The notes under the pieces were generated by a model. It saw nothing but the letters and a program-made list of their open reading frames with translations, made no database searches and was not told the DNA's origin. Below are positions 10,932 through 32,562 of a stretch of 64,000 bases of DNA, piece by piece; the stretch's first letter is position 1; each line of letters opens with the position of its first letter. Source of the stretch: an uncultured Thermoanaerobaculia bacterium (GTDB lineage: Bacteria; Acidobacteriota; Thermoanaerobaculia; Multivoradales; JAGPDF01); assembly GCA_964618415.1 (NCBI GenBank), contig CAZUAT010000005.1, forward strand, positions 49 to 64,048, given 5' to 3'. The position numbers and the translations under genes were made by a program.

Positions 10932-11444
10932 GTGACTTTCAAGGTCGGCCAGAAGGTCGTCTATCCCAATCATGGCGTAACGGTCGTCGAGGACATCGCG
11001 ACCAGCTTCATCGATGGCGCCGAGCGGACCTGCTATCACCTGCGATTGCTGTCGAGCAATTCGAAGGTCATGGTCCCCAAGGACAACCTGGATCTCGTGG
11101 GGCTGCGGCCCCTGTGTGAGGTCAAGGAGATCCGCAACGTGCTCGGCATTCTCGAGAACGGCAGCTTCGACGCCCAGAAGGACTGGAAGGGGCGTTACAA
11201 GCAGAACGTCGAGAAGATGAAGACCGGTCGTATCACCGAGGTCGCCGAGGTCCTGAAGAACCTCAAGTTCGTGAGCCAGAAGAAGAGCCTGTCGTTCCGC
11301 GAGAAGAAGATGTACGAGCGGGCGCGGCACTTCATCGTCAGCGAAGTCGCTCACGTCAAGGGCCTGACCGAGCGCGACGCCGAAGTCCAGGTCGAGAAGG
11401 CACTCTCCTCGAGCCTCGCCAAGCGGGCGCGCGTGGCGAGCTGA
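10932..11444 (+). CDS. carD: CarD/CdnL-family RNA-polymerase-binding transcription regulator
   Basis: FKVGQKVVYPNHGVTVVEDI...YHLRLL...KVMVP...LRP (Tudor-like RID) plus a C-terminal helical domain. Confidence 0.9.
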   Translation: MTFKVGQKVVYPNHGVTVVEDIATSFIDGAERTCYHLRLLSSNSKVMVPKDNLDLVGLRPLCEVKEIRNVLGILENGSFDAQKDWKGRYKQNVEKMKTGRITEVAEVLKNLKFVSQKKSLSFREKKMYERARHFIVSEVAHVKGLTERDAEVQVEKALSSSLAKRARVAS

Positions 11445-17305: not shown

Positions 17306-19450
17306 ATGCCTGCAGTTTCGCCCTCCCGCCCGCCGTTCCGCCGCCTGCGCCGGGCACTGCTGGTGCTCGCAGGACTGGTCGTCTGCGGCGTGGCGGGGCT
17401 CTATCTGCTCGGGCGCCAGACTATGCCTCCGGTCGAGGTAGTCGCCGGCCCCGACCCCCTGACCAGCGACGAGGGCGCGCTGGCGTTCAGTGAAGGGTTC
17501 GAGTACGAGCAGCGGATCGGCGAGCGCAGCGCCTTCCTGCTCGCCGGCGAACGGTTCGTGCGTGGGCGCGACGAGTCGGTCTCGCTCGAGGGTGTGGCGG
17601 TCGAGCTGACGCGCGAGGACGGGGGCACCTATCGGATCGAGAGTCGCCACGCGCTCTGGCGGCCGGACCTGAAGGAAGCGCAGCTCACCGAAGCGGTGCG
17701 GCTGGTTGGCCCGCGTGGACTGCAGCTGACCTCGGAGCGACTGGACCTGGTGGACGGCGGGCGGCGCCTGATCTCGCGCGGTCCGGTCGGGCTGGCCCTG
17801 GGCGAGCGGTTCGGCGGACGTGCCGCGGGGCTGCGCTTCGAGACGCCGACCGAACGGCTGCATCTGCAGGGCCGCGTGCGCCTGGCCGGCACGACGGGAG
17901 AGGCGGAGGCGGAGCGTCGCCTGGCACTCGAGGCCGGAACGATGATGCTCGACCGCCCGACGCGCACGGTGCGCGCCTCGAACCGCGTCCTGCTGCAGTC
18001 CGGAGGGGACCGGCTGGCGGCGCGGTGGCTCGAGGTCGTCTTCGACGAGGACGAGCGCGAACCGGTCTCGGCACTGGCGCGCGGCGGGGTACACGGCGGT
18101 TTCGACGCCGGCGACCCGTCGGGCAGCCTGGGCGACGAGCCGACGGAAGCCATGGCCGACGCGAGGGGCTCGGCGGAAGACGTTGTGGCGGACGCGTCCG
18201 GCGATCCGGAAGAACTGCCGGACGAGGAGGCCACCTCATCGACCGACGATCCGGTGGCCGAGGCCACTGCCGCCTCCTCGACAGGCGGCGGACGGGCGCG
18301 GGTGCGCTTCCAGGCGGCCGTCGCGCGCCTTGCGTTTGCCGGTCAACCGTCCCGCCCGGCGCAGCTGGAGCTCGATGGGGAGGCGGGCAGCCCGGCGCGA
18401 CTGGTGCTGGCCGGCGACGACGCGGCCACGCGCGTTCTGACGGCGCCGACGGTCCTGGCCAGCTTCGGCGAGGACGGGCATCCCACCGCGGCCGGCGCCA
18501 GCGGCGGAGTGGTCCTGCGCGAGCGGGGTGGTCCGTCCGGCCTGCGGGTGGCAAGCGGCGCGGAGGCCACGGTGGGGTTCCAGCCCGGCGGCACGGTCGG
18601 CCGGATCGAGCTGCGGGGCGCGGTCCGCGTCGCCCACGGCGACACCGAGGCGCACGGAGAGCGGGCCCAGTTCGATCCCGGCACCGGCACCGGTGCGCTG
18701 TTCGGCTCGGCGACTGCGCCGGCGACGGCGCGCGGCCCGCGGGGCGTTCTGTTCGCTCCGCGCATCGACGTCGACCAGGCCGCATCGATGGTGCGGGCCA
18801 CGGGCGGCGTGCGCGGCGAGCTGGCACGCGGGGCCGCGATCGGTCCGGACGGCAGCGCGGCCGGCGCCAGCGACGAGCCGGTCCACATCCGCGCCAGGGA
18901 GGCGAGCTGGGCCGACGCCGGACGCAGCTGGCGCTTTGCGGGCGAGGTGCAGGCGGTGCAGGGCGAGACGCTGCTGTTTGCTGACGAGCTGGTCGGGACG
19001 GAGGCCGGCTCTGCGCAGGCGCGCGGGGGCGTGCGCACCGTCTGGCGTGAGGCAGCGACCGCCGAGCTGCCCGAGCCGCCGTCGACGACCGTGTCGGCCG
19101 CCCAGCTCGCCTACCGGCGTCAGCCGGGCGAACTGCTCTACGAGGGCGAAGTGATGGCGCGGCAAGGCGAGCGCGAGCTGGCGGCGGCGCGCGTGCGGGT
19201 GGAACTCGACGAGGCCGGCCAGGCGCGCCACCTCGAGGCGACCGGCGACGTGAGAATCCTCGACCGCGCGTCGGGGCGGACGATCTCGGGGTCGCGGGCC
19301 GACCACGACCTGGTGGCGCGGCGCATCCTGGTCGTCGGCGAGCCGGTGCTGCTGCGCGAGCCGGGCGGGACCCAGGTGCGCGGCCGCCGGCTGATCTACG
19401 ACCTGGCCGCGGGCACCGCGCGGATGCTCTCCGAGGGAGAGGAACCATGA
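17306..19450 (+). CDS. Large membrane-anchored LptC/LptA(OstA)-like protein with several beta-jellyroll-like repeats and an acidic linker
   Basis: N-terminal TM ([19 protein letters not shown]). Repeated OstA/LptA-like strands occur (e.g. [39 protein letters not shown]...ATGDVRILD...[19 protein letters not shown]...GRRLIYDL). The stop overlaps the lptB start by 4 nt, which is the canonical lptC-lptA position. The domain call rests on pattern and context only. Confidence 0.5.
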
Positions 19451-20196
19451 GCGCGACTACCACTCCCGCAACGGCGGCGGTTCTGCGCGCTCACGACCTG
19501 AAGAAGGTCTACGGTGGCCGTACCGTGGTCTCCGGCGTGTCCGTGCAGATCGCCCCCGGCGAGATCGTCGGTCTGCTCGGGCCCAATGGCGCCGGCAAGA
19601 CGACGATGTTCTACATGGTGGTCGGACTGGTACCTCCGGACGGCGGGACCGTGCACCTCGGTGACGAGGAGATCACCGCGCTGCCGATGTACCAGCGCGC
19701 CCAGCGCGGCATCAGCTACCTGCCACAGGAGCCGTCGGTCTTCCGCAAGTTGTCGGTCGAGGACAATCTGCGAGCGATCTTCGAAACCCTCGACCTGTCG
19801 CACGCCGAGCAGGAGCGGCGTATCGATCGCCTGATCGAAGATTTCAAACTGGAGAAGGTGCGACGCAGCCAGGGCTACATGCTGTCCGGTGGCGAGCGGC
19901 GGCGCGTCGAGATCGCGCGCTCGCTCGCCATCAGCCCGTCATTCGTGTTGCTCGACGAGCCTTTCGCCGGTATCGATCCGATCGCGGTGCTCGATATTCA
20001 AGGTATCATCCGACACCTCAGGGAGATGGGCATCGGCGTTCTGATTACCGACCACAACGTGCGCGAAACGCTGAAGATCACCAGTCGCGCGTACATCATC
20101 AACAACGGCGAGATCCTTCGCTCTGGAACGCCCGACGAGCTGTCGGCCGATCCCAAGGTGCGCAAGATCTATCTCGGCGAAGAATTCAGCCTCTGA
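19447..20196 (+). CDS. lptB: LPS export ABC transporter ATP-binding protein LptB
   Basis: [57 protein letters not shown]; directly upstream of rpoN. Confidence 0.95.
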
Positions 20197-27711: not shown

Positions 27712-29105
27712 GTCGGGAGGTCAGCACGCCGCCGCGCCGGGTCTTCATCGAGACCTGGGGCTGCCAGATGAACGAGCTGGACACGCAGCGGATGACCGGC
27801 CTGCTCATGCAGCAGGGGATTCTGCCGACCCGCGAGGTGGCCGAGGCCGACCTGATCCTGCTCAACTCCTGCTCGGTGCGCGAGAAGGCGGCCAACAAGG
27901 CGTACTCCCGGCTCGGCGAGTACCGACTGCTGAAGCGCGATCGGCCGAGCCTGCGCATCGGCCTGTGCGGCTGCGTGGCGCAGCAGGAGGGCGAACGGGC
28001 GCTCGGGCGGGTTCCGGATCTCGACTTCGTCCTCGGCCCGGCGCGCGTCGGCGAGATCGCCGACCTCCTGCCCAGACTCGAGCGCGGCGAGCGGGTCGTC
28101 GCGACCGGCTTTCCGGAGCAGCGCAACTACGAGTTCGACACCATCGCCCGGGGCGAAGAGTTCAAGGGGATGGTCACCGTCATCGAGGGCTGTGACAAGC
28201 GGTGCACGTTCTGCATCGTGCCGTCGACCCGCGGGCCGGAGCGCTGCCGGCCGATGGGTGAAGTCGTCGCGGAGGTGCGCCACCTGCTGGAGTTCGGGTT
28301 CCGGGAGATCGAACTGCTCGGTCAGACCGTGAACCACTGGCGGGGTGGCGACGGCGAGGACTTTGCCGACCTGCTCGACGCCGTGGCTCCGCTGCCCGGC
28401 CTGGCGCGGCTGCGCTTCATGACCTCCTACCCGCGCGACTTCACGCCGCGGATGGTCGACGCGTTCGCCCGCCACGCCAACCTGTGCGACTACCTGCACC
28501 TGCCGGTCCAGTCGGGTTCGGACGCCGTGCTGCGGCGAATGGGACGCGGCTACGCGATCGCCGAGTACGATGCGCTGGTGGCCAGCCTGCGACGCGCTCG
28601 GCCGAGCGTGGCGCTGTCGACCGACCTGATCGTCGGCTTTCCGGGCGAGACCGAGGAGGACTTCCAGCTCACCCTCGAGCTGGTCGAGCGGACGCGGTTC
28701 GCGTCGCTCTTTGCCTTCTGTTACTCGCCGCGGCCCGGGACCGCCGCCACCCGCCTGAACGGCGCCGTCCCGCGCCAGGTTGCCGAGGAGCGGCTGCAGC
28801 GCCTGCTCGCCGCCCAGGACCGGATCCAGGCCGAGCTCAACGCCGAGCTGACCGGCCGGCGCTTCGAGGTCCTGGTGACAGGACCCGGGAAGCAGCCGGG
28901 CACGCGCGTCGGACGGACCTCATGCAACCGGATCGTTCACTTCGCCGCCGAGCCCGACCAGGCCCCGGCGGGGGAGATGGTCGGGGTCGAGGTCGGCCAG
29001 CCGCTGCCGCACAGCCTCCGCGGCCAGCTCGTCCGCCCGGCGGTGCCGACCGCCGGGACCCTCCCGCGCCCGCGCACGAGCCCCCTTCCGGTGCTCACCT
29101 CCTGA
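27708..29105 (+). CDS. miaB: tRNA-i6A37 methylthiotransferase MiaB
   Basis: UPF0004 N-domain (ETWGCQMNELD...NSCSVREKA), radical-SAM CDKRCTFCIVP, and a C-terminal TRAM domain. Confidence 0.9.
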   Translation: MSREVSTPPRRVFIETWGCQMNELDTQRMTGLLMQQGILPTREVAEADLILLNSCSVREKAANKAYSRLGEYRLLKRDRPSLRIGLCGCVAQQEGERALGRVPDLDFVLGPARVGEIADLLPRLERGERVVATGFPEQRNYEFDTIARGEEFKGMVTVIEGCDKRCTFCIVPSTRGPERCRPMGEVVAEVRHLLEFGFREIELLGQTVNHWRGGDGEDFADLLDAVAPLPGLARLRFMTSYPRDFTPRMVDAFARHANLCDYLHLPVQSGSDAVLRRMGRGYAIAEYDALVASLRRARPSVALSTDLIVGFPGETEEDFQLTLELVERTRFASLFAFCYSPRPGTAATRLNGAVPRQVAEERLQRLLAAQDRIQAELNAELTGRRFEVLVTGPGKQPGTRVGRTSCNRIVHFAAEPDQAPAGEMVGVEVGQPLPHSLRGQLVRPAVPTAGTLPRPRTSPLPVLTS

Positions 29106-29135
29106 AGGCCAGCACCGCGCGACCCGCGCGTTCAA

Positions 29136-29333
29136 TCGGCTGGCACCTCGCGCCGGACGGGGTCAAATCGTTGAAAAACAAAGACAAAGGCTCATAGAGG
29201 GACAAACGCGGGACCGCCTGAGCAGCCTGCCTCCGGCCCCGGCACCGGAATCTGTCTAGGCGGCTGGCACCTGGTCTGCGGCAGGTGGTCTCCGCAGAGG
29301 CGATCGGCCGCCGCTCATTCGGCTGGCGCCTGG
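29136..29333 (+). repeat. Cluster of three direct copies of the CGGCTGGCRCC repeat (C2 29136-29150, C3 29260-29274, C4 29308-29333)
   Basis: Read directly: tcggctggcacctcg, gcggctggcacctgg and ccgccgctcattcggctggcgcctgg. They lie in the 240-bp gap between the miaB stop and the 3' end of the coiled-coil gene. Confidence 0.7.
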
Positions 29334-29343
29334 TCGTTTCGGT

Positions 29344-29868
29344 TCAGCGACCGGCGAGGCGACGGTCTAGGATCGCCTGCCAAGCTTCGACCTCTTCGAC
29401 AAGCTCGGCGACTCGGCCCTGCAGGTCCGCGATTTCCGCTGAGACCACAGCGATCCTCGAGTTCACTCGGGTAAGGTGCGCTGTCCAGGTGCGGGTGAGA
29501 TTCTCTAGATCCGCAGGCGGCTGGTTCTGGTCGAAGCCGCGCTCGGAGCGCGAGCGGTTCATCTCGAGCTGCAACTCGAGTTGGGACTTGCGGTCCTGAA
29601 GCGCTTCGCGGCGAGTTTCCGCACCCTCTAGTCGTCGCGCGGCCTCCGATACCTGACTCACCCCTAGCTGGACTCGAGTGATGAGAAGATCTAAGTCATC
29701 CGACTCAGACTGGCGAGCCAGCAGCTCCGCGATTCGCTCAAGAGTAGTGCTGATCCTGGCGAGGTGATCTGTGATGTCAAGCTGGGTCTGCTGAGCCGGA
29801 CTCGCGCCCGCCGCCGCGAGAGGCGCGACCAGCAGCATTGCCACTAGCCTGGTAAGCCTGATTCGCAT
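29344..29868 (-). CDS. Secreted coiled-coil protein of unknown function (partner of the fulvocin-like gene)
   Basis: A start at the internal Met gives MRIRLTRLVAMLLVAPLAAAGA|SPAQQ (signal peptide). The rest is heptad-like and charged (LERIAELLARQ..., LQDRKSQLELQLE..., IADLQGRVAELVEEVEAWQAILD). It lies 59 nt downstream of the fulvocin-like gene on the same strand, in the low-GC stretch. Confidence 0.55.
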   Translation of the reverse strand: MRIRLTRLVAMLLVAPLAAAGASPAQQTQLDITDHLARISTTLERIAELLARQSESDDLDLLITRVQLGVSQVSEAARRLEGAETRREALQDRKSQLELQLEMNRSRSERGFDQNQPPADLENLTRTWTAHLTRVNSRIAVVSAEIADLQGRVAELVEEVEAWQAILDRRLAGR

Positions 29869-29927
29869 GTGATCTACGCACTGACGCCGCATGCGAAAGC
29901 TTCCGCAACTCGGTGTACTACGGCGCA

Positions 29928-30614
29928 TCAGTAGCACTGGTTGGGATTGGTAGTTCTGCAGCAGCGGCCGTCACACCCGAACAGCCAGAGGTAGCCGCAG
30001 CCAAAGCTCTGGGATTCGCAGTCCGTGATCGGAGGGTTTGAACTGGTGCAATAGAAGAACTGGCCGAAGCACTCCTCATCGTCTCCAAAGTTGACTGAAC
30101 AGCTACAGGTGGGCAGCTCACCCATCTGCGAGACTGGCGACCCACGTCGCCGAGGCGGCTGCTTGTTGAAGGCGATTGCAGCCACTTCGTCGGAGTCGAA
30201 CGCGGTGGAGAGAAGCCCCGTCGCCCAGAGAGCGTCATCGAGTATCGCCGCTTCCCCTCCTGCGATCGCCCGTTCGAAAATCTCCGGAGTAACGGACTTG
30301 GCGAGTTCGTGCAGCCGGTCCTGCTGCAAAGTTGTCAGAGGCAGATCCAGAAACGACTCGATTTGAGCGCGCCAGAATCGCGCCTTCTCCTCTGCCGTGA
30401 AGCGGGCTACCAACTCCCGTTGCACGAGCGGATCCAGGTGGCTGATCTCGGCATAACTCGGAACATCTGGCTGCTGTGCCAGAATTCGATCCGCTGCCAG
30501 CCGAGCCAGCGCCGCGGCCTCAGAGCATGGTTCCGCCGCGTGGACAGGCGGCTGTCCGAGAATCGCGACCAGTGACACTGCGGCTGTGACGGCTAGACCA
30601 CACGATTTATTCAT
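29928..30614 (-). CDS. Fulvocin-C-related, Cys-rich secreted bacteriocin precursor (putative)
   Basis: Signal peptide MNKSCGLAVTAAVSLVAILGQPPVHA|AEP and a helical pro-region (TAEEKARFWRAQIESFLDLPLTTLQQDRLHELAKSVTPEIFE). The 59-aa C-terminus has 10 Cys (CSCS...C...C...C...GCGYLWLFGCDGRCC...C). The family assignment is from memory of the fulvocin C-related protein family and was not searched. Confidence 0.65.
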   Translation of the reverse strand: MNKSCGLAVTAAVSLVAILGQPPVHAAEPCSEAAALARLAADRILAQQPDVPSYAEISHLDPLVQRELVARFTAEEKARFWRAQIESFLDLPLTTLQQDRLHELAKSVTPEIFERAIAGGEAAILDDALWATGLLSTAFDSDEVAAIAFNKQPPRRRGSPVSQMGELPTCSCSVNFGDDEECFGQFFYCTSSNPPITDCESQSFGCGYLWLFGCDGRCCRTTNPNQCY

Positions 30615-30823
30615 GCCTCCTCCCGTGAGGTGTTGCGCCCCAGCCGGTGCCTACTCGGCGCTGGTCGGCAACTCGTGACACCCAGGACGCCACCATACTC
30701 GCCCGGCTCTCGTCAAGGGGGCCTCACGGGTGCCGTAACGTCCGATAAGATAGATTATGTAAACTCCGGCAGCACGAAACGCTCACGAGCGGCGTCCGGA
30801 TCACGCTGGATGGCGTCTCGCGC

Positions 30824-31717
30824 CTACTCTTCTTTCGCGTTGCGGAGGTCTTCCAGGATCTGCTCGAGGGCCTGGATCAGGTCGGTCTTGTCGACCGTGC
30901 TCTGGCGAAAAGTCATCTGGAGGGCGTATCGCTGATCCGGCGCCTTGAACTTGAAGACGAACGGCTTGCGGCGATCCGGACTCCCGGGCCGCCGGCCGGG
31001 CGCGCGGCTGTCCTCGCGGACGTCGTCCCGCGTCAGGCCCTGCTGGGCGACCTTGTCGAGCATCGCCTTCATGCGTGCCGGCGTGCCGAGCTTGGCGACC
31101 TCGAGCAACAGCGATCGGGACCGGATTCCCAGGTCTGCGGCTACCTTGCGCAGCTCCGGCGGAATCTGCAGCAGCGCCAGCGTCTCGGCCACCAGCGAGC
31201 GCGACTTGCCCACCGCCTTGGCGATCCGCTCCTGCGTGTAGCCGTGGAGCTGGCCCAGGGCCCGGTAACCGTCGGCCTCTTCGAACGGAGACAGGTCGCG
31301 CCGCTGGAGGTTCTCGATCAGCGCGATCTCGAGCGCCTCTTCCTCGCTGACCTCCAACTCGATGGCCGGGATCTCGTAGAGACCCGCCTCGAGTGCGGCG
31401 CGATATCGACGCTCGCCGGCGATCAGCCGGAAGGTCGTGCCGCCCCCCGTGCCGGGCTCGCCCCCCGTCTCGCTGGACGGCAGCGGGCGCACCAGGACCG
31501 GCTCGAGCACCCCCTTGTCCCGGATCGACGCTACGAGGTCGGTCAGATCGCCCATCTCGCCGCGCGGCTGGTTCGGATCCGGCTGCACAGCGGAGAGCGG
31601 AATCAGCCGTCCGACCGCAGCCCGGTCGCGGCTCGTGAGCTCGTCCACGAAGTGCGCCGTGTGGCGCATCTTGACCCGTACGGGAAGTCCCCGCTTGGCA
31701 GTACCCGGCTCAGACAC
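30824..31717 (-). CDS. parB: Chromosome partitioning protein ParB/Spo0J
   Basis: ParB box GVLEPVLVRP...FRLIAGERRYRAA, and HTH LTQERIAKAVGKSRS.V...L.LL.LP. Confidence 0.9.
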   Translation of the reverse strand: MSEPGTAKRGLPVRVKMRHTAHFVDELTSRDRAAVGRLIPLSAVQPDPNQPRGEMGDLTDLVASIRDKGVLEPVLVRPLPSSETGGEPGTGGGTTFRLIAGERRYRAALEAGLYEIPAIELEVSEEEALEIALIENLQRRDLSPFEEADGYRALGQLHGYTQERIAKAVGKSRSLVAETLALLQIPPELRKVAADLGIRSRSLLLEVAKLGTPARMKAMLDKVAQQGLTRDDVREDSRAPGRRPGSPDRRKPFVFKFKAPDQRYALQMTFRQSTVDKTDLIQALEQILEDLRNAKEE

Positions 31718-32468
31718 GGCTCAGAACCTCCTCGGACAGCTTGTAATACTCATAGGCGCCGGTGGACCGCGGCGAGAAGGTGAAGATCGACTCCTTGTAG
31801 GCCGGGCTCTCCTCGAGACGGACGCTCTTGGTGATCACCGTCTCGAACAGCTTGTCGCCGAATACCTTTCGAATCTGGTCGACGATGTCGCGCGCCAGAA
31901 GCGTCCGCTTGTCGTGCAGCGTGATGACCGCCCCCAGGATCTGAAGCTGGGGGTTCGCCCGCGCCTTGACCTTGTCGATCGTCTCGAGCAGATCGTCCGT
32001 CCCCTCCAGCGCGAAGTAGCTGGACTGAATCGGAATCATGACGTGGGTCGCTGCCACCAGAGCGTTGACGGTGATGATGCCGAGGGTCGGCGGCGTGTCG
32101 ATGATGATGAAGTCGAAGTCCGGCAGCACCTTCGCCAAGGCATCCTTGAGCCGGAAGTGGCTGTCGATGTCGCCGAGCAGCTTCGCCTCCAGTTTGGCCA
32201 GAGCGATCGACGACGGCGCCAGCAGGAGGTTCGGGACCTTCTCCGCCTGTTGCAGGATGCCGGCGATCCCCACGTCCGGTTCCGTCAGGGCGTCGAAGAC
32301 GGTCTTGGGCGCCGAATGGGCGTCGATGAACGACATCGTGCTGTTTGCCTGCGGATCGAGGTCGACCAGCAGCGTCCGGATCCCCTTGGACGCCAACGCC
32401 GCCGCCAGGTTGATCGCCGTGGTCGTCTTCCCCACGCCGCCCTTCTGATTCGTGATCGTCAGGATCAT
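31710..32468 (-). CDS. parA: Chromosome partitioning ATPase ParA/Soj
   Basis: MILTITNQKGGVGKTTTAINLAAALA (deviant Walker A), LLVDLDPQ.N.T, IIIDTPP. The start was taken at the Met preceding the Walker A. Confidence 0.9.
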   Translation of the reverse strand: MILTITNQKGGVGKTTTAINLAAALASKGIRTLLVDLDPQANSTMSFIDAHSAPKTVFDALTEPDVGIAGILQQAEKVPNLLLAPSSIALAKLEAKLLGDIDSHFRLKDALAKVLPDFDFIIIDTPPTLGIITVNALVAATHVMIPIQSSYFALEGTDDLLETIDKVKARANPQLQILGAVITLHDKRTLLARDIVDQIRKVFGDKLFETVITKSVRLEESPAYKESIFTFSPRSTGAYEYYKLSEEVLSRV

Positions 32469-32532
32469 CGGGGAAACCGCTTGCGGCAGGCCGGCCGCAT
32501 CGTTCGCGCGATCGTTTTCATGGAGGACCGGC

Positions 32533-32562
32533 AGTGTACGCAAGCGGTCGCAGCCCGGTCAA
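32533..32562 (-). promoter_or_regulatory. Candidate sigma-70 promoter for parAB (TTGACC-18 nt-TACACT)
   Basis: On the minus strand, TTGACC is at 32562-32557 and TACACT at 32538-32533, about 65 nt upstream of the parA ATG. The spacer is 18 nt, so this is a weak call. Confidence 0.3.

What the first reader, a model, noticed from the sequence alone, without database searches (positions are those of the whole stretch)
29344..30614. Low-GC two-gene islet between parB and miaB encodes a Sec-secreted, 10-cysteine fulvocin-C-like bacteriocin precursor
ORF 29928-30614 (-) encodes 228 aa. It has a signal peptide (MNKSCGLAVTAAVSLVAILGQPPVHA|AEP) and a helical, Cys-poor pro-region of about 150 aa (TAEEKARFWRAQIESFLDLPLTTLQQDRLHELAKSVTPEIFE). 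A basic stretch (PPRRRG) follows, then a 59-aa C-terminal module with 10 Cys: CSCSVNFGDDEECFGQFFYCTSSNPPITDCESQSFGCGYLWLFGCDGRCCRTTNPNQCY.

From memory, this architecture and the CSCS...GCG.W...C pattern correspond to proteins annotated as fulvocin C-related. Fulvocin C is a small disulfide-rich bacteriocin of Myxococcus fulvus. I could not run an alignment.

The gene and its downstream partner occupy the only clearly GC-depressed stretch of the window. Hand counts of several 60-nt lines give about 50-55% G+C, against about 63-72% in flanking genes. The islet fills the gap between the 3' ends of parB and miaB, and no transposase or integrase is present. To my knowledge, processing, export, immunity and target are essentially unstudied for this family, so this is the best candidate here for an uncharacterised antimicrobial or secreted-peptide system.
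Basis: partly seen in the sequence, partly recalled or inferred. Interest (0 to 1): 0.7.

Follow-up and report, generated by a model that had tools for sequence, protein, structure and literature searches.

The report
Fulvocin-like bacteriocin gene beside chromosomal dif
This is a real but ordinary member of an already-catalogued family of secreted, cysteine-rich bacteriocin precursors (fulvocin C-related), carried with an orphan partner gene in a small foreign-looking insertion that sits at the replication terminus right next to the chromosome's dif site in an uncultured acidobacterium.

Summary
ORF 29928-30614(-) encodes the 228-aa protein as described. It scores 73.9 bits against NCBIfam NF033852 (fulvocin C-related; cutoff 35). 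All 8 Cys and the GCG motif of fulvocin C (UniProt P01547) align; two extra Cys define a 10-Cys subclade. In Myxococcus the 45-aa bacteriocin is the C-terminus of a ~200-aa precursor of the same architecture, so the signal/pro-domain/mature-peptide reading is well founded.

The family is large and spans many phyla, so this is a new member of a known kind. It has no solved structure and almost no literature.

The islet is 61% GC against 70% for the window. The clearer signal is GC3: 0.68-0.70 against 0.88-0.92 in parB and miaB. All related Thermoanaerobaculia genomes lack both genes. The partner gene is a secreted coiled-coil ORFan.

New context: a canonical 28-bp dif site (30738-30765) lies 123 nt upstream of the gene. 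The GC-skew switch at about 29 kb marks the replication terminus. No second dif-like site flanks the islet, so Xer-mediated (IMEX-like) capture is possible but unsupported.

The parts
29928..30614 (-). Gene for the 228-aa fulvocin C-related precursor (stop codon at 29928-29930)
   Evidence: ORF. NF033852 at 73.9 bits against cutoff 35. 79 HMMER relatives with the same layout. Identical protein on 11 metagenome contigs in the same context.
30616..30624 (-). Shine-Dalgarno sequence GGGAGGAGG, one base upstream of the ATG
   Evidence: Read directly from the sequence.
30537..30614 (-). Predicted Sec signal peptide, aa 1-26 (MNKSCGLAVTAAVSLVAILGQPPVHA|AEP)
   Evidence: The sequence shows an n-region, a hydrophobic core and VHA at -3..-1. 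Homologues all begin with a comparable hydrophobic segment. No signal-peptide predictor was available, so this is an inference.
30165..30536 (-). Helical pro-domain, aa 27-150, with invariant Trp81 and a conserved single Cys30
   Evidence: AlphaFold2 helices at 32-149, pLDDT 89-98. W81 is invariant in 77 sequences. C30 is nearly invariant. No fold or sequence relative in the PDB.
30114..30164 (-). Disordered, variable linker, aa 151-167, containing PPRRRG; the likely site of proteolytic release
   Evidence: pLDDT 53-56. The column block is variable in the family alignment. In the M. fulvus precursor, mature fulvocin C starts 2 residues before the CxC motif.
29931..30113 (-). Cys-rich module homologous to mature fulvocin C, aa 168-228: 61 aa, 10 Cys, about 6.8 kDa, pI about 4.05, net charge about -5
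   Evidence: Alignment to P01547 and precursors. All 10 Cys are invariant in a 13-member subclade. Physical parameters. Domain model has pLDDT 76 and no PDB fold match.
29344..29868 (-). Partner gene: 174-aa secreted coiled-coil protein, an ORFan (alternative starts at 29892 and 29937)
   Evidence: ORF. Only noise-level coiled-coil hits in NCBIfam and Pfam. No homologue other than itself among 5.8 billion proteins. GC1/2/3 of 0.73/0.46/0.70 shows coding-type periodicity and the same depressed GC3 as its neighbour. 100% identical on all contigs that carry the bacteriocin gene.
30738..30765 (+). Chromosomal dif site (XerC arm ACGTCCGATAA, centre GATAGA, XerD arm TTATGTAAACT), 123 nt upstream of the bacteriocin gene's ATG
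   Evidence: 23/28 identical to B. subtilis dif and 25/28 to the predicted G. sulfurreducens dif (sequences from PMC3025954 and PMC2731167). Unique in the window. Conserved 52-665 nt downstream of parB in 10 relatives. The core 25-mer occurs once per locus in 120+ genomes.
29106..30737 (.). Variable slot between dif and the 3' end of miaB, holding the two-gene islet (1632 nt here; 69-837 nt in relatives)
   Evidence: Gap lengths. No tblastn trace of either islet gene in L007-L013. DNA similarity to relatives is limited to the dif site.
28500..30800 (.). Replication terminus (GC-skew switch)
   Evidence: Cumulative G-C rises steadily to a maximum at 29.0 kb, then falls to the window end. Skew is +0.031 on the left and -0.034 on the right. 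The fall continues through + strand genes at 40-49 kb. 10 of 12 GGGNAGGG motifs point toward dif.

Best explanation
The 228-aa ORF is a genuine, divergent member of the fulvocin C-related family. It is a precursor made of a Sec signal peptide, a folded helical pro-domain of about 120 aa, a flexible linker and a C-terminal disulfide-rich peptide.

Shown:
- Family membership.
- Conservation of the 8-Cys fulvocin framework, plus a fifth Cys pair shared by a subclade.
- The fact that in Myxococcus the purified 45-aa bacteriocin is exactly the C-terminal module of such a precursor.

Inferred by analogy:
- The protein is exported by Sec into the periplasm.
- It is oxidised to five disulfides.
- It is cut in the linker about two residues before the CSCS motif. 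This frees an acidic peptide of about 61 aa and 6.8 kDa that acts as a narrow-spectrum bacteriocin.

Origin. The gene and a co-oriented orphan gene for a secreted coiled-coil protein form a 1.6-kb insertion with foreign codon usage. The orphan may be an immunity or accessory factor, which is speculative. The species acquired the insertion in the non-essential spacer between the chromosomal dif site and miaB, at the replication terminus. How it got there is unknown. Simple illegitimate or homologous recombination into a permissive, hypervariable terminus spacer is the default.
For: Family membership:
- NF033852 at 73.9 bits against cutoff 35, full-length profile match.
- Exhaustive HMMER finds 79 cluster representatives of about 200 aa that align over aa 60-220.
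- They share C-x-C...C...C...C...GCG..W...C[ND]GxC.

Link to fulvocin C:
- P01547 was confirmed by exact look-up. It clusters with 196-202-aa Myxococcus proteins named fulvocin C-related.
- The alignment puts all 8 fulvocin Cys on window Cys residues. Mature fulvocin starts 2 aa before the CxC motif.
- A 10-Cys subclade has all ten Cys invariant.

Structure: whole-protein pLDDT 82 and pTM 0.76, with a helical domain, a disordered linker and a beta-rich Cys domain.

Expression signal: strong Shine-Dalgarno sequence.

Foreign origin:
- GC3 of 0.68/0.70 against 0.88 (parB) and 0.92 (miaB).
- Both genes are absent from the same junction in 7 relatives with ParB 57-83% identical.
- Closest family members are only 22-34% identical.

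Terminus and dif context.
Against: - No activity, processing or export data exist for this protein or for any family member other than fulvocin C. That literature consists of two papers from 1977 and 1981.
- A membrane-anchored TlpA-like thioredoxin follows the gene in 32 of 94 family loci. It is absent from the whole 64-kb window.
- The partner gene has no homologues, so an immunity role is a guess.
- An in-frame 32-aa deletion allele that removes the invariant Trp circulates in the same population. This could indicate relaxed selection.
- How an acidic 6.8-kDa peptide would cross the outer membrane is unknown.
Confidence: 0.75

Rival explanations
1. The islet is an integrase-less mobile cassette captured at dif by the host XerC/XerD recombinases. 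It would be an IMEX-like element or 'dif module' carrying a bacteriocin and its immunity gene. That would explain why no integrase or transposase accompanies it.
For: - The islet begins 1 nt from the outer edge of the XerC arm of a canonical dif site, and all DNA similarity to relatives stops there.
- The slot on that side of dif varies from 69 to 837 nt among relatives and once holds a different gene.
- The islet contains no recombinase gene.
- Metagenome contigs break exactly at both edges of dif: L151 ends at 30737, and L021 starts 1 nt before dif.
- Elements that integrate at dif without their own integrase are well documented (reviews listed, e.g. PMC5357621, PMC9765430).
Against: - The defining signature, a second dif-like site at the other end, is missing on either strand. 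The best match inside 29106-30737 is 16/28, the same as the background elsewhere in the window.
- The core ATAA-N6-TTAT occurs only once.
- No other family member lies next to a dif site in 94 family loci or 120 dif loci.
- There is no copy on plasmids.
- No contig shows the cassette in another context or as a circle.
- Contig breaks at dif edges are expected anyway when related species that share only the dif sequence co-occur in a sample.
Confidence: 0.12
2. The protein is a secreted disulfide-rich protein with a non-antibiotic role, such as signalling, surface or matrix function, or inhibition of an enzyme. The ~200-aa form may be the functional unit, and fulvocin C's killing activity would be a special case.
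For: - The helical domain is better conserved and more confidently folded than the Cys module, and pTM of 0.76 suggests the two pack together.
- Family neighbours in Bacteroidota are thioredoxin, DUF1573, O-antigen-ligase-like and PadR genes, not classical immunity or ABC-export genes.
- The mature-like peptide is acidic (pI 4.05), unlike most membrane-active peptides.
- Activity has been shown for one member only.
Against: - The only experimentally studied member is a bacteriocin whose purified form is exactly the C-terminal module.
- The patchy, strain-specific, horizontally acquired distribution seen here is typical of competition factors.
Confidence: 0.2
3. The gene pair is ancestral at this position and was lost in the sampled relatives. 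The low GC would reflect AT-biased mutation near the terminus rather than foreign origin.
For: Terminus-proximal regions of many bacteria are somewhat AT-richer (general knowledge). The islet lies exactly at the skew switch.
Against: - The genes immediately flanking the islet at the same terminus keep GC3 of 0.88-0.92.
- Seven relatives spanning 57-83% ParB identity show no remnant of either gene.
- The partner gene has no homologue anywhere.
- The nearest family members are at most 34% identical.
Confidence: 0.07

Closest known systems
Fulvocin C of Myxococcus fulvus (UniProt P01547) and its ~200-aa genomic precursors (e.g. WP_223748309.1)
   Same: Same architecture: signal peptide, helical pro-domain, linker and C-terminal Cys-rich peptide. 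All 8 Cys, the CSCS start and the GCG..W..C[ND]GxC motif align.
   Different: - Only 23% identical overall, and 36% over the mature module.
- 10 rather than 8 Cys: an extra CC plus a C-terminal Cys.
- Longer loops, so about 61 aa against 45 aa.
- The host is a Thermoanaerobaculia acidobacterium, not a myxobacterium.
- The neighbours differ: the Myxococcus gene is followed by a ceramidase-like gene and has a thioredoxin/TPR protein 3 kb away.
NCBIfam NF033852 'bacteriocin fulvocin C-related protein' family at large
   Same: Scores twice the curated cutoff over the full profile. It shares the invariant Trp of the pro-domain and the Cys framework with 76 diverse members.
   Different: - Belongs to a minority 10-Cys subclade, seen mostly in metagenome assemblies.
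- Lacks the membrane TlpA-like thioredoxin that follows the gene in about one third of loci.
- It is the only member found next to a dif site.
IMEXs and dif modules (CTXphi, TLCphi, gonococcal genetic island, Acinetobacter pdif modules): elements that use host XerCD
   Same: A small cargo island without its own recombinase, lying directly against a canonical dif site at the terminus.
   Different: No second dif-like site, no phage or replication genes, and no evidence of mobility. The resemblance is positional only.
Sec-dependent, leader-plus-propeptide antimicrobial peptides (e.g. eukaryotic prepro-defensins and knottins; Sec-exported bacteriocins such as enterocin P). From my own knowledge, not tested here.
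   Same: A signal peptide, then a pro-piece, then a small disulfide-stabilised mature peptide released by proteolysis.
   Different: No sequence or fold relationship was detected to any solved structure. The pro-domain here is a large, folded, conserved helical domain, and both it and the mature peptide are acidic.

Membership tests
Fulvocin C-related family (NCBIfam NF033852) | Profile HMM score above the curated cutoff over most of the model | tested here: met
   73.9 bits against cutoff 35, E = 2.5e-20, aa 65-218 on profile positions 1-149 of 150.
Fulvocin C-related family (NCBIfam NF033852) | C-terminal module with the fulvocin Cys framework: CxC, three spaced Cys, GCG, then C[ND]GxC | tested here: met
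   All 8 positions align with P01547 and Myxococcus precursors. C170, C172, C182, C189, C206, C214 and C218 are invariant, and C199 nearly invariant, in 77 sequences.
Fulvocin C-related family (NCBIfam NF033852) | N-terminal secretion signal followed by a helical pro-domain of about 120 aa with a conserved Trp | tested here: met
   Hydrophobic N-terminus with a VHA|A site. Helices at 32-149 with pLDDT >90. W81 is invariant.
Fulvocin C-related family (NCBIfam NF033852) | Proteolytic release of the C-terminal peptide as the active species | not testable with these tools
   Inferred from Myxococcus, where the 45-aa product equals the precursor C-terminus. It needs mass spectrometry.
Fulvocin C-related family (NCBIfam NF033852) | Bacteriocin (growth-inhibiting) activity | not testable with these tools
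   Known only for fulvocin C itself (Hirsch 1977 and Tsai & Hirsch 1981, as cited in PMC8708641).
Fulvocin C-related family (frequent accessory, not defining) | Adjacent membrane-anchored TlpA/AhpC-type thioredoxin gene | tested here: not met
   Present directly downstream in 32 of 94 family loci. No match anywhere in the window to an HMM built from these proteins.
IMEX / dif module (Xer-exploiting mobile element) | Located at a functional-looking chromosomal dif site | tested here: met
   dif at 30738-30765, matching 23-25 of 28 positions of known or predicted dif sites, at the GC-skew switch.
IMEX / dif module (Xer-exploiting mobile element) | Element bounded by a second dif-like (attL/attR) site | tested here: not met
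   Best second site is 16/28, equal to background. The core ATAA-N6-TTAT is unique.
IMEX / dif module (Xer-exploiting mobile element) | Evidence of mobility: empty or occupied sites within a species, a circular form, or the same cassette elsewhere | tested here: inconclusive
   All contigs with identical ParB that extend past dif carry the islet. Contigs break at the dif edges, which co-occurring relatives can also explain. There are no plasmid copies.
RiPP with dedicated tailoring enzymes / double-glycine-leader bacteriocin with ABC exporter | Adjacent modifying enzyme, or a GG-leader with a peptidase-ABC transporter | tested here: not met
   Only the coiled-coil ORFan accompanies the gene, and the flanks are parB and miaB. 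The N-terminus is a Sec-type signal, not a GG leader.

The most novel reading that the evidence does not exclude
The two-gene cassette (disulfide-rich bacteriocin plus an orphan secreted coiled-coil protein) is cargo captured at the chromosomal dif site by the host Xer recombinases. The flanking site would have since decayed. If so, small integrase-less 'dif modules' would carry competition genes into the replication terminus of Acidobacteriota, a phylum where no such element is known. The orphan protein would be a new kind of periplasmic immunity factor.
Probability: 0.1. Interest if true: 0.6.

Novelty: new member of a known kind. Interest (0 to 1): 0.3.

Why it matters
It matters modestly. 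The fulvocin family turns out to be large: 79 cluster representatives at 50% identity, and members in at least ten phyla. Yet it rests on two papers from 1977 and 1981, and it has no solved structure or detectable fold relative. Any tractable member could open up its processing, disulfide map, target and immunity.

This instance adds three things. It is a clear case of recent horizontal acquisition in an uncultured acidobacterium. It defines a 10-Cys subclade. It also has a compact two-gene locus that would be easy to express.

The family-wide link to a dedicated membrane thioredoxin is probably of broader use than the gene itself. So is the conserved placement of parAB next to dif at the terminus in Acidobacteriota.

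Tried and rejected
- The word-indexed homologue search found only the protein itself and a deletion allele. The exhaustive HMMER search was needed to see the family.
I replaced it with a degenerate DNA pattern for GCGxxWxxxC[ND]GxC.
- Pfam has no model for the protein.
- Rfam found nothing in the parB-miaB spacers of the window or of two relatives.
- The promoter scan found no sigma-70-type site upstream of the gene.
- I first read the conserved 28-nt motif as a promoter. I rejected that because the hexamers and spacing do not fit, and then recognised it as dif.
- Foldseek against the PDB gave no match with E below 1, for either the whole model or the Cys domain alone. The profile search of PDB sequences was also empty.
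- The downstream gene of the closest distant relative (P0003) is a 4-TM membrane protein unrelated to the coiled-coil ORFan, so there is no conserved partner within the subclade.
- The search for a second dif-like site was negative.
- The search for dif sites next to other family members was negative.
- The look-up of contigs encoding the window's MiaB, meant to find an islet-free allele, returned nothing on record.
- There is no canonical parS within 3 mismatches in the window.
Full report
**1. The observation**

A strong ribosome-binding site, GGGAGGAGG, lies one base before the ATG. The last 59 residues contain 10 cysteines.

A second ORF follows in the same direction, at 29344-29937 if the longest start is taken. 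Gene callers on identical metagenome contigs start it further in, giving 164 or 182 aa. The ATG at 29868 gives a 174-aa protein with a classical signal peptide (MRIRLTRLVAMLLVAPLAAAGA...).

The flanking genes are a ParB (TIGR00180 133 bits; Pfam ParB_N and HTH_ParB) and MiaB (TIGR01574 425 bits). They are convergent.

**2. Composition**

The 1271-nt stretch is 61.2% G+C in a window that averages 70.3%. Only 0.2% of equally long windows are lower.

Overall G+C also dips at a CarD-like gene (10932-11444) and at LptB (19447-20196). Those genes keep a normal third-position G+C (0.88 and 0.82), so their dips come from amino-acid composition.

The two islet genes have GC3 of 0.68 and 0.70. Flanking values are 0.88 (parB), 0.88 (parA) and 0.92 (miaB), and the crude window median is 0.85. 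The islet is therefore the one place in the window where codon usage itself is atypical.

**3. Family assignment**

Pfam has no model for the protein. NCBIfam NF033852, 'bacteriocin fulvocin C-related protein', matches aa 65-218 over profile positions 1-149 of 150. The score is 73.9 bits against a curated cutoff of 35.

I recalled the 45-aa fulvocin C sequence and verified it by exact look-up. It is UniProt P01547 (FULC_MYXFU). At 90% identity it clusters with 196-202-aa Myxococcus proteins that NCBI names fulvocin C-related.

Aligned together:
- The mature bacteriocin corresponds to the C-terminal 45 residues of those precursors and starts two residues before the CSCS motif.
- Every one of its 8 Cys, and the GCG motif, falls on a Cys or GCG of the window protein.

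**4. Size and conservation of the family**

An exhaustive HMMER search of 1.84 billion cluster representatives found 79 relatives with E <= 0.001. Nearly all are about 200 aa and align over residues 60-220.

All but two of them (P0018 and P0047, which have no Cys-rich tail) end in C-x-C...C...C...C...GCG..W/L...C[ND]GxC. In a 77-sequence alignment these Cys and one Trp of the N-terminal domain (W81) are invariant.

The window protein's best relatives (28-34% identical) share two further Cys: a CC doublet and a C-terminal Cys. All ten Cys are invariant in a 13-member subclade. Some members of that subclade have a duplicated N-terminal domain.

**5. Structure**

AlphaFold2 on the family alignment gives pLDDT 82 and pTM 0.76. 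The model has helices across residues 32-149 (pLDDT about 90-98), a disordered linker at 150-170 and a small beta-rich Cys domain. The Cys domain modelled alone gives pLDDT 76.

Neither model has a Foldseek match in the PDB with E below 1. A profile search of PDB sequences is also empty. The family has no solved structure.

**6. Distribution and neighbours of the family**

97 ORFs, in about 94 of the 120 retrieved stretches, match a family HMM.

They come from Bacteroidota, Actinomycetota, Acidobacteriota, Myxococcota, Gemmatimonadota, Chloroflexota, Chlorobiota, Balneolota, Bdellovibrionota and Pseudomonadota. The family is thus common and already named by NCBI's annotation pipeline.

Clustering the neighbouring ORFs showed:
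- A membrane-anchored thioredoxin-fold protein (AhpC-TSA/Redoxin, CxxC) in 32 of 94 loci, lying directly downstream in nearly all of them. This is a sensible partner for a peptide with four or five disulfides.
- DUF1573 in 13 loci.
- O-antigen-ligase-like proteins in 12 loci.
- A PadR regulator plus a membrane protein in 7-10 loci, mostly in Bacteroidota.

None of these is present in the window.

**7. The partner gene**

The 174-aa coiled-coil protein gives only noise-level coiled-coil matches. It has no homologue but itself among 5.8 billion proteins.

It shares the depressed GC3 of its neighbour and shows coding-type periodicity. It is 100% conserved on every contig that carries the bacteriocin gene.

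The closest distant relative of the bacteriocin gene (P0003) is followed by an unrelated 140-aa four-helix membrane protein. An immunity role for the coiled-coil protein is possible but is only a guess.

**8. Host and synteny**

ParB relatives identify the host as an uncultured Thermoanaerobaculia (Acidobacteriota). The best hits are 82-83% identical.

In seven related genomes parB and miaB are also convergent, but the gap between them is 178-1069 nt. It contains no trace of either islet gene. In the window the gap is 1719 nt.

The identical protein occurs on 11 short metagenome contigs in the same context. Every contig with an identical ParB that extends far enough carries the islet.

**9. 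The dif site and the terminus**

The only DNA shared with relatives in the spacer is a 27-30-nt block just downstream of parB. On the plus strand it reads ACGTCCGATAA-GATAGA-TTATGTAAACT (30738-30765).

The evidence that this is a dif site, the 28-bp target of the XerC/XerD chromosome-dimer resolvases, is as follows:
- It matches 23 of 28 positions of the experimentally confirmed B. subtilis dif, with the XerD arm identical.
- It matches 25 of 28 positions of the predicted Geobacter sulfurreducens dif (sequences quoted from PMC3025954 and PMC2731167).
- It is unique in the window.
- The core 25-mer occurs once per locus in more than 120 genomes of Acidobacteriota, Thermodesulfobacteriota, Nitrospirota and others.

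The surrounding sequence behaves like a replication terminus:
- Cumulative G-C rises steadily from the start of the window to a maximum at 29.0 kb, then falls to the end.
- Skew is +0.031 on the left and -0.034 on the right. The fall continues through plus-strand genes, so it is not a transcription-strand effect.
- Ten of twelve GGGNAGGG motifs point toward the site.

The bacteriocin gene starts 123 nt from dif. The stretch between dif and miaB is the part that varies among relatives, from 69 to 837 nt.

**10. How did the islet get there?**

Lying against dif with no recombinase gene suggests an element that exploits Xer (IMEX or dif module). I tested the defining feature, a second dif-like site at the far end, and it is not met:
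- The best candidate matches 16 of 28 positions, the same as background elsewhere in the window.
- No other family member sits beside a dif site.
- There is no plasmid copy.
- No alternative context was found.

Two metagenome contigs break exactly at the edges of dif. That is expected when related species sharing only dif co-occur in a sample. I therefore keep Xer-mediated capture as a low-probability reading (about 0.1). The default is insertion into a permissive, hypervariable terminus spacer.

An ancestral gene lost in all relatives is unlikely. The flanking genes at the same terminus have normal GC3, and there are no remnants of the islet genes.

**11. Verdict**

The gene is a new, divergent member of a known and catalogued family. 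Its architecture has a direct experimental anchor in fulvocin C. Function, processing, export across the outer membrane and immunity remain inferred.

Novelty is limited to three points: membership of a 10-Cys subclade, the acidobacterial host, and the position at dif. Interest is about 0.3.

Noticed in passing
window 30738-30765, with parB at 30824-31717 and parA at 31710-32543; also L007-L016 and 29 of the loci L152-L271: The parA-parB operon ends 52-665 nt from the chromosomal dif site, at what GC skew marks as the replication terminus. The linkage is conserved across Acidobacteriota classes (Thermoanaerobaculia, Holophagae, Aminicenantia and others) down to about 40% ParB identity. From general knowledge, chromosomal parAB is usually origin-proximal, so this arrangement looks unusual. 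I found no canonical parS in the window within 3 mismatches.
   Followed up: partly
P0002; loci L019-L021 (window 30324-30419 equivalent): A second allele of the bacteriocin gene, seen in three sequencing runs, carries an in-frame 32-aa deletion (aa 66-97). The deletion removes the most conserved helix and the invariant Trp81 of the pro-domain. Contig L150 ends exactly at this breakpoint, so both alleles co-occur. This may indicate relaxed selection or a functional short form.
   Followed up: partly
P0081 (UniProt P01547) versus P0082/P0083 (Myxococcus genomic precursors): The 1981 protein-sequenced C-terminus of fulvocin C (...GWVYCACNGNFY) disagrees with the genome-encoded sequence (...GWVYACNGDCFY). 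The genomic version restores the family's C[ND]GxC motif, so the database entry probably carries a sequencing error that misplaces the last Cys.
   Followed up: partly
family loci L029-L148: In 32 of 94 loci a membrane-anchored TlpA/AhpC-type thioredoxin (CxxC) is found, directly downstream of the fulvocin-like gene in nearly all of them. DUF1573 (13 loci), Wzy_C-like (12) and PadR plus a membrane protein (7-10) also recur, mostly in Bacteroidota. This points to a dedicated disulfide-forming partner for the family.
   Followed up: partly
window protein Cys30 (nt 30525-30527) and the homologous column: A single Cys 3-5 residues after the predicted signal-peptide cleavage site is conserved in most family members. 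This gives the secreted pro-protein an odd number of Cys. It is not a lipobox. It might form a transient mixed disulfide with the Cys-rich module.
   Followed up: no
P0004, P0005, P0007 (323-341 aa): Some members of the 10-Cys subclade carry two tandem copies of the helical pro-domain before a single Cys-rich module.
   Followed up: no
L007 6966-7567 and L008 6972-7557 (dif-miaB spacer of the closest relatives): The roughly 600-nt spacer that replaces the islet in the two closest genomes has no convincing ORF. It contains repeated short palindromic blocks of the form CCTTCTNAGGAAG. A degenerate copy may survive at window ~29160-29200. Rfam found nothing there.
   Followed up: no
L151 (ends at window 30737) and L021 (starts at window 30766): Metagenome contigs terminate exactly at the outer edges of the dif site, so the assembly graph branches on both sides of dif in those samples. 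Co-occurring relatives that share only dif could cause this, and so could alternative content at the slot.
   Followed up: partly
window 10932-11444 and 19447-20196: The other short G+C dips in the window are a CarD-like regulator gene and lptB. Both have normal GC3 (0.88, 0.82) and low GC1/GC2, so the cause is amino-acid composition, not foreign origin.
   Followed up: yes
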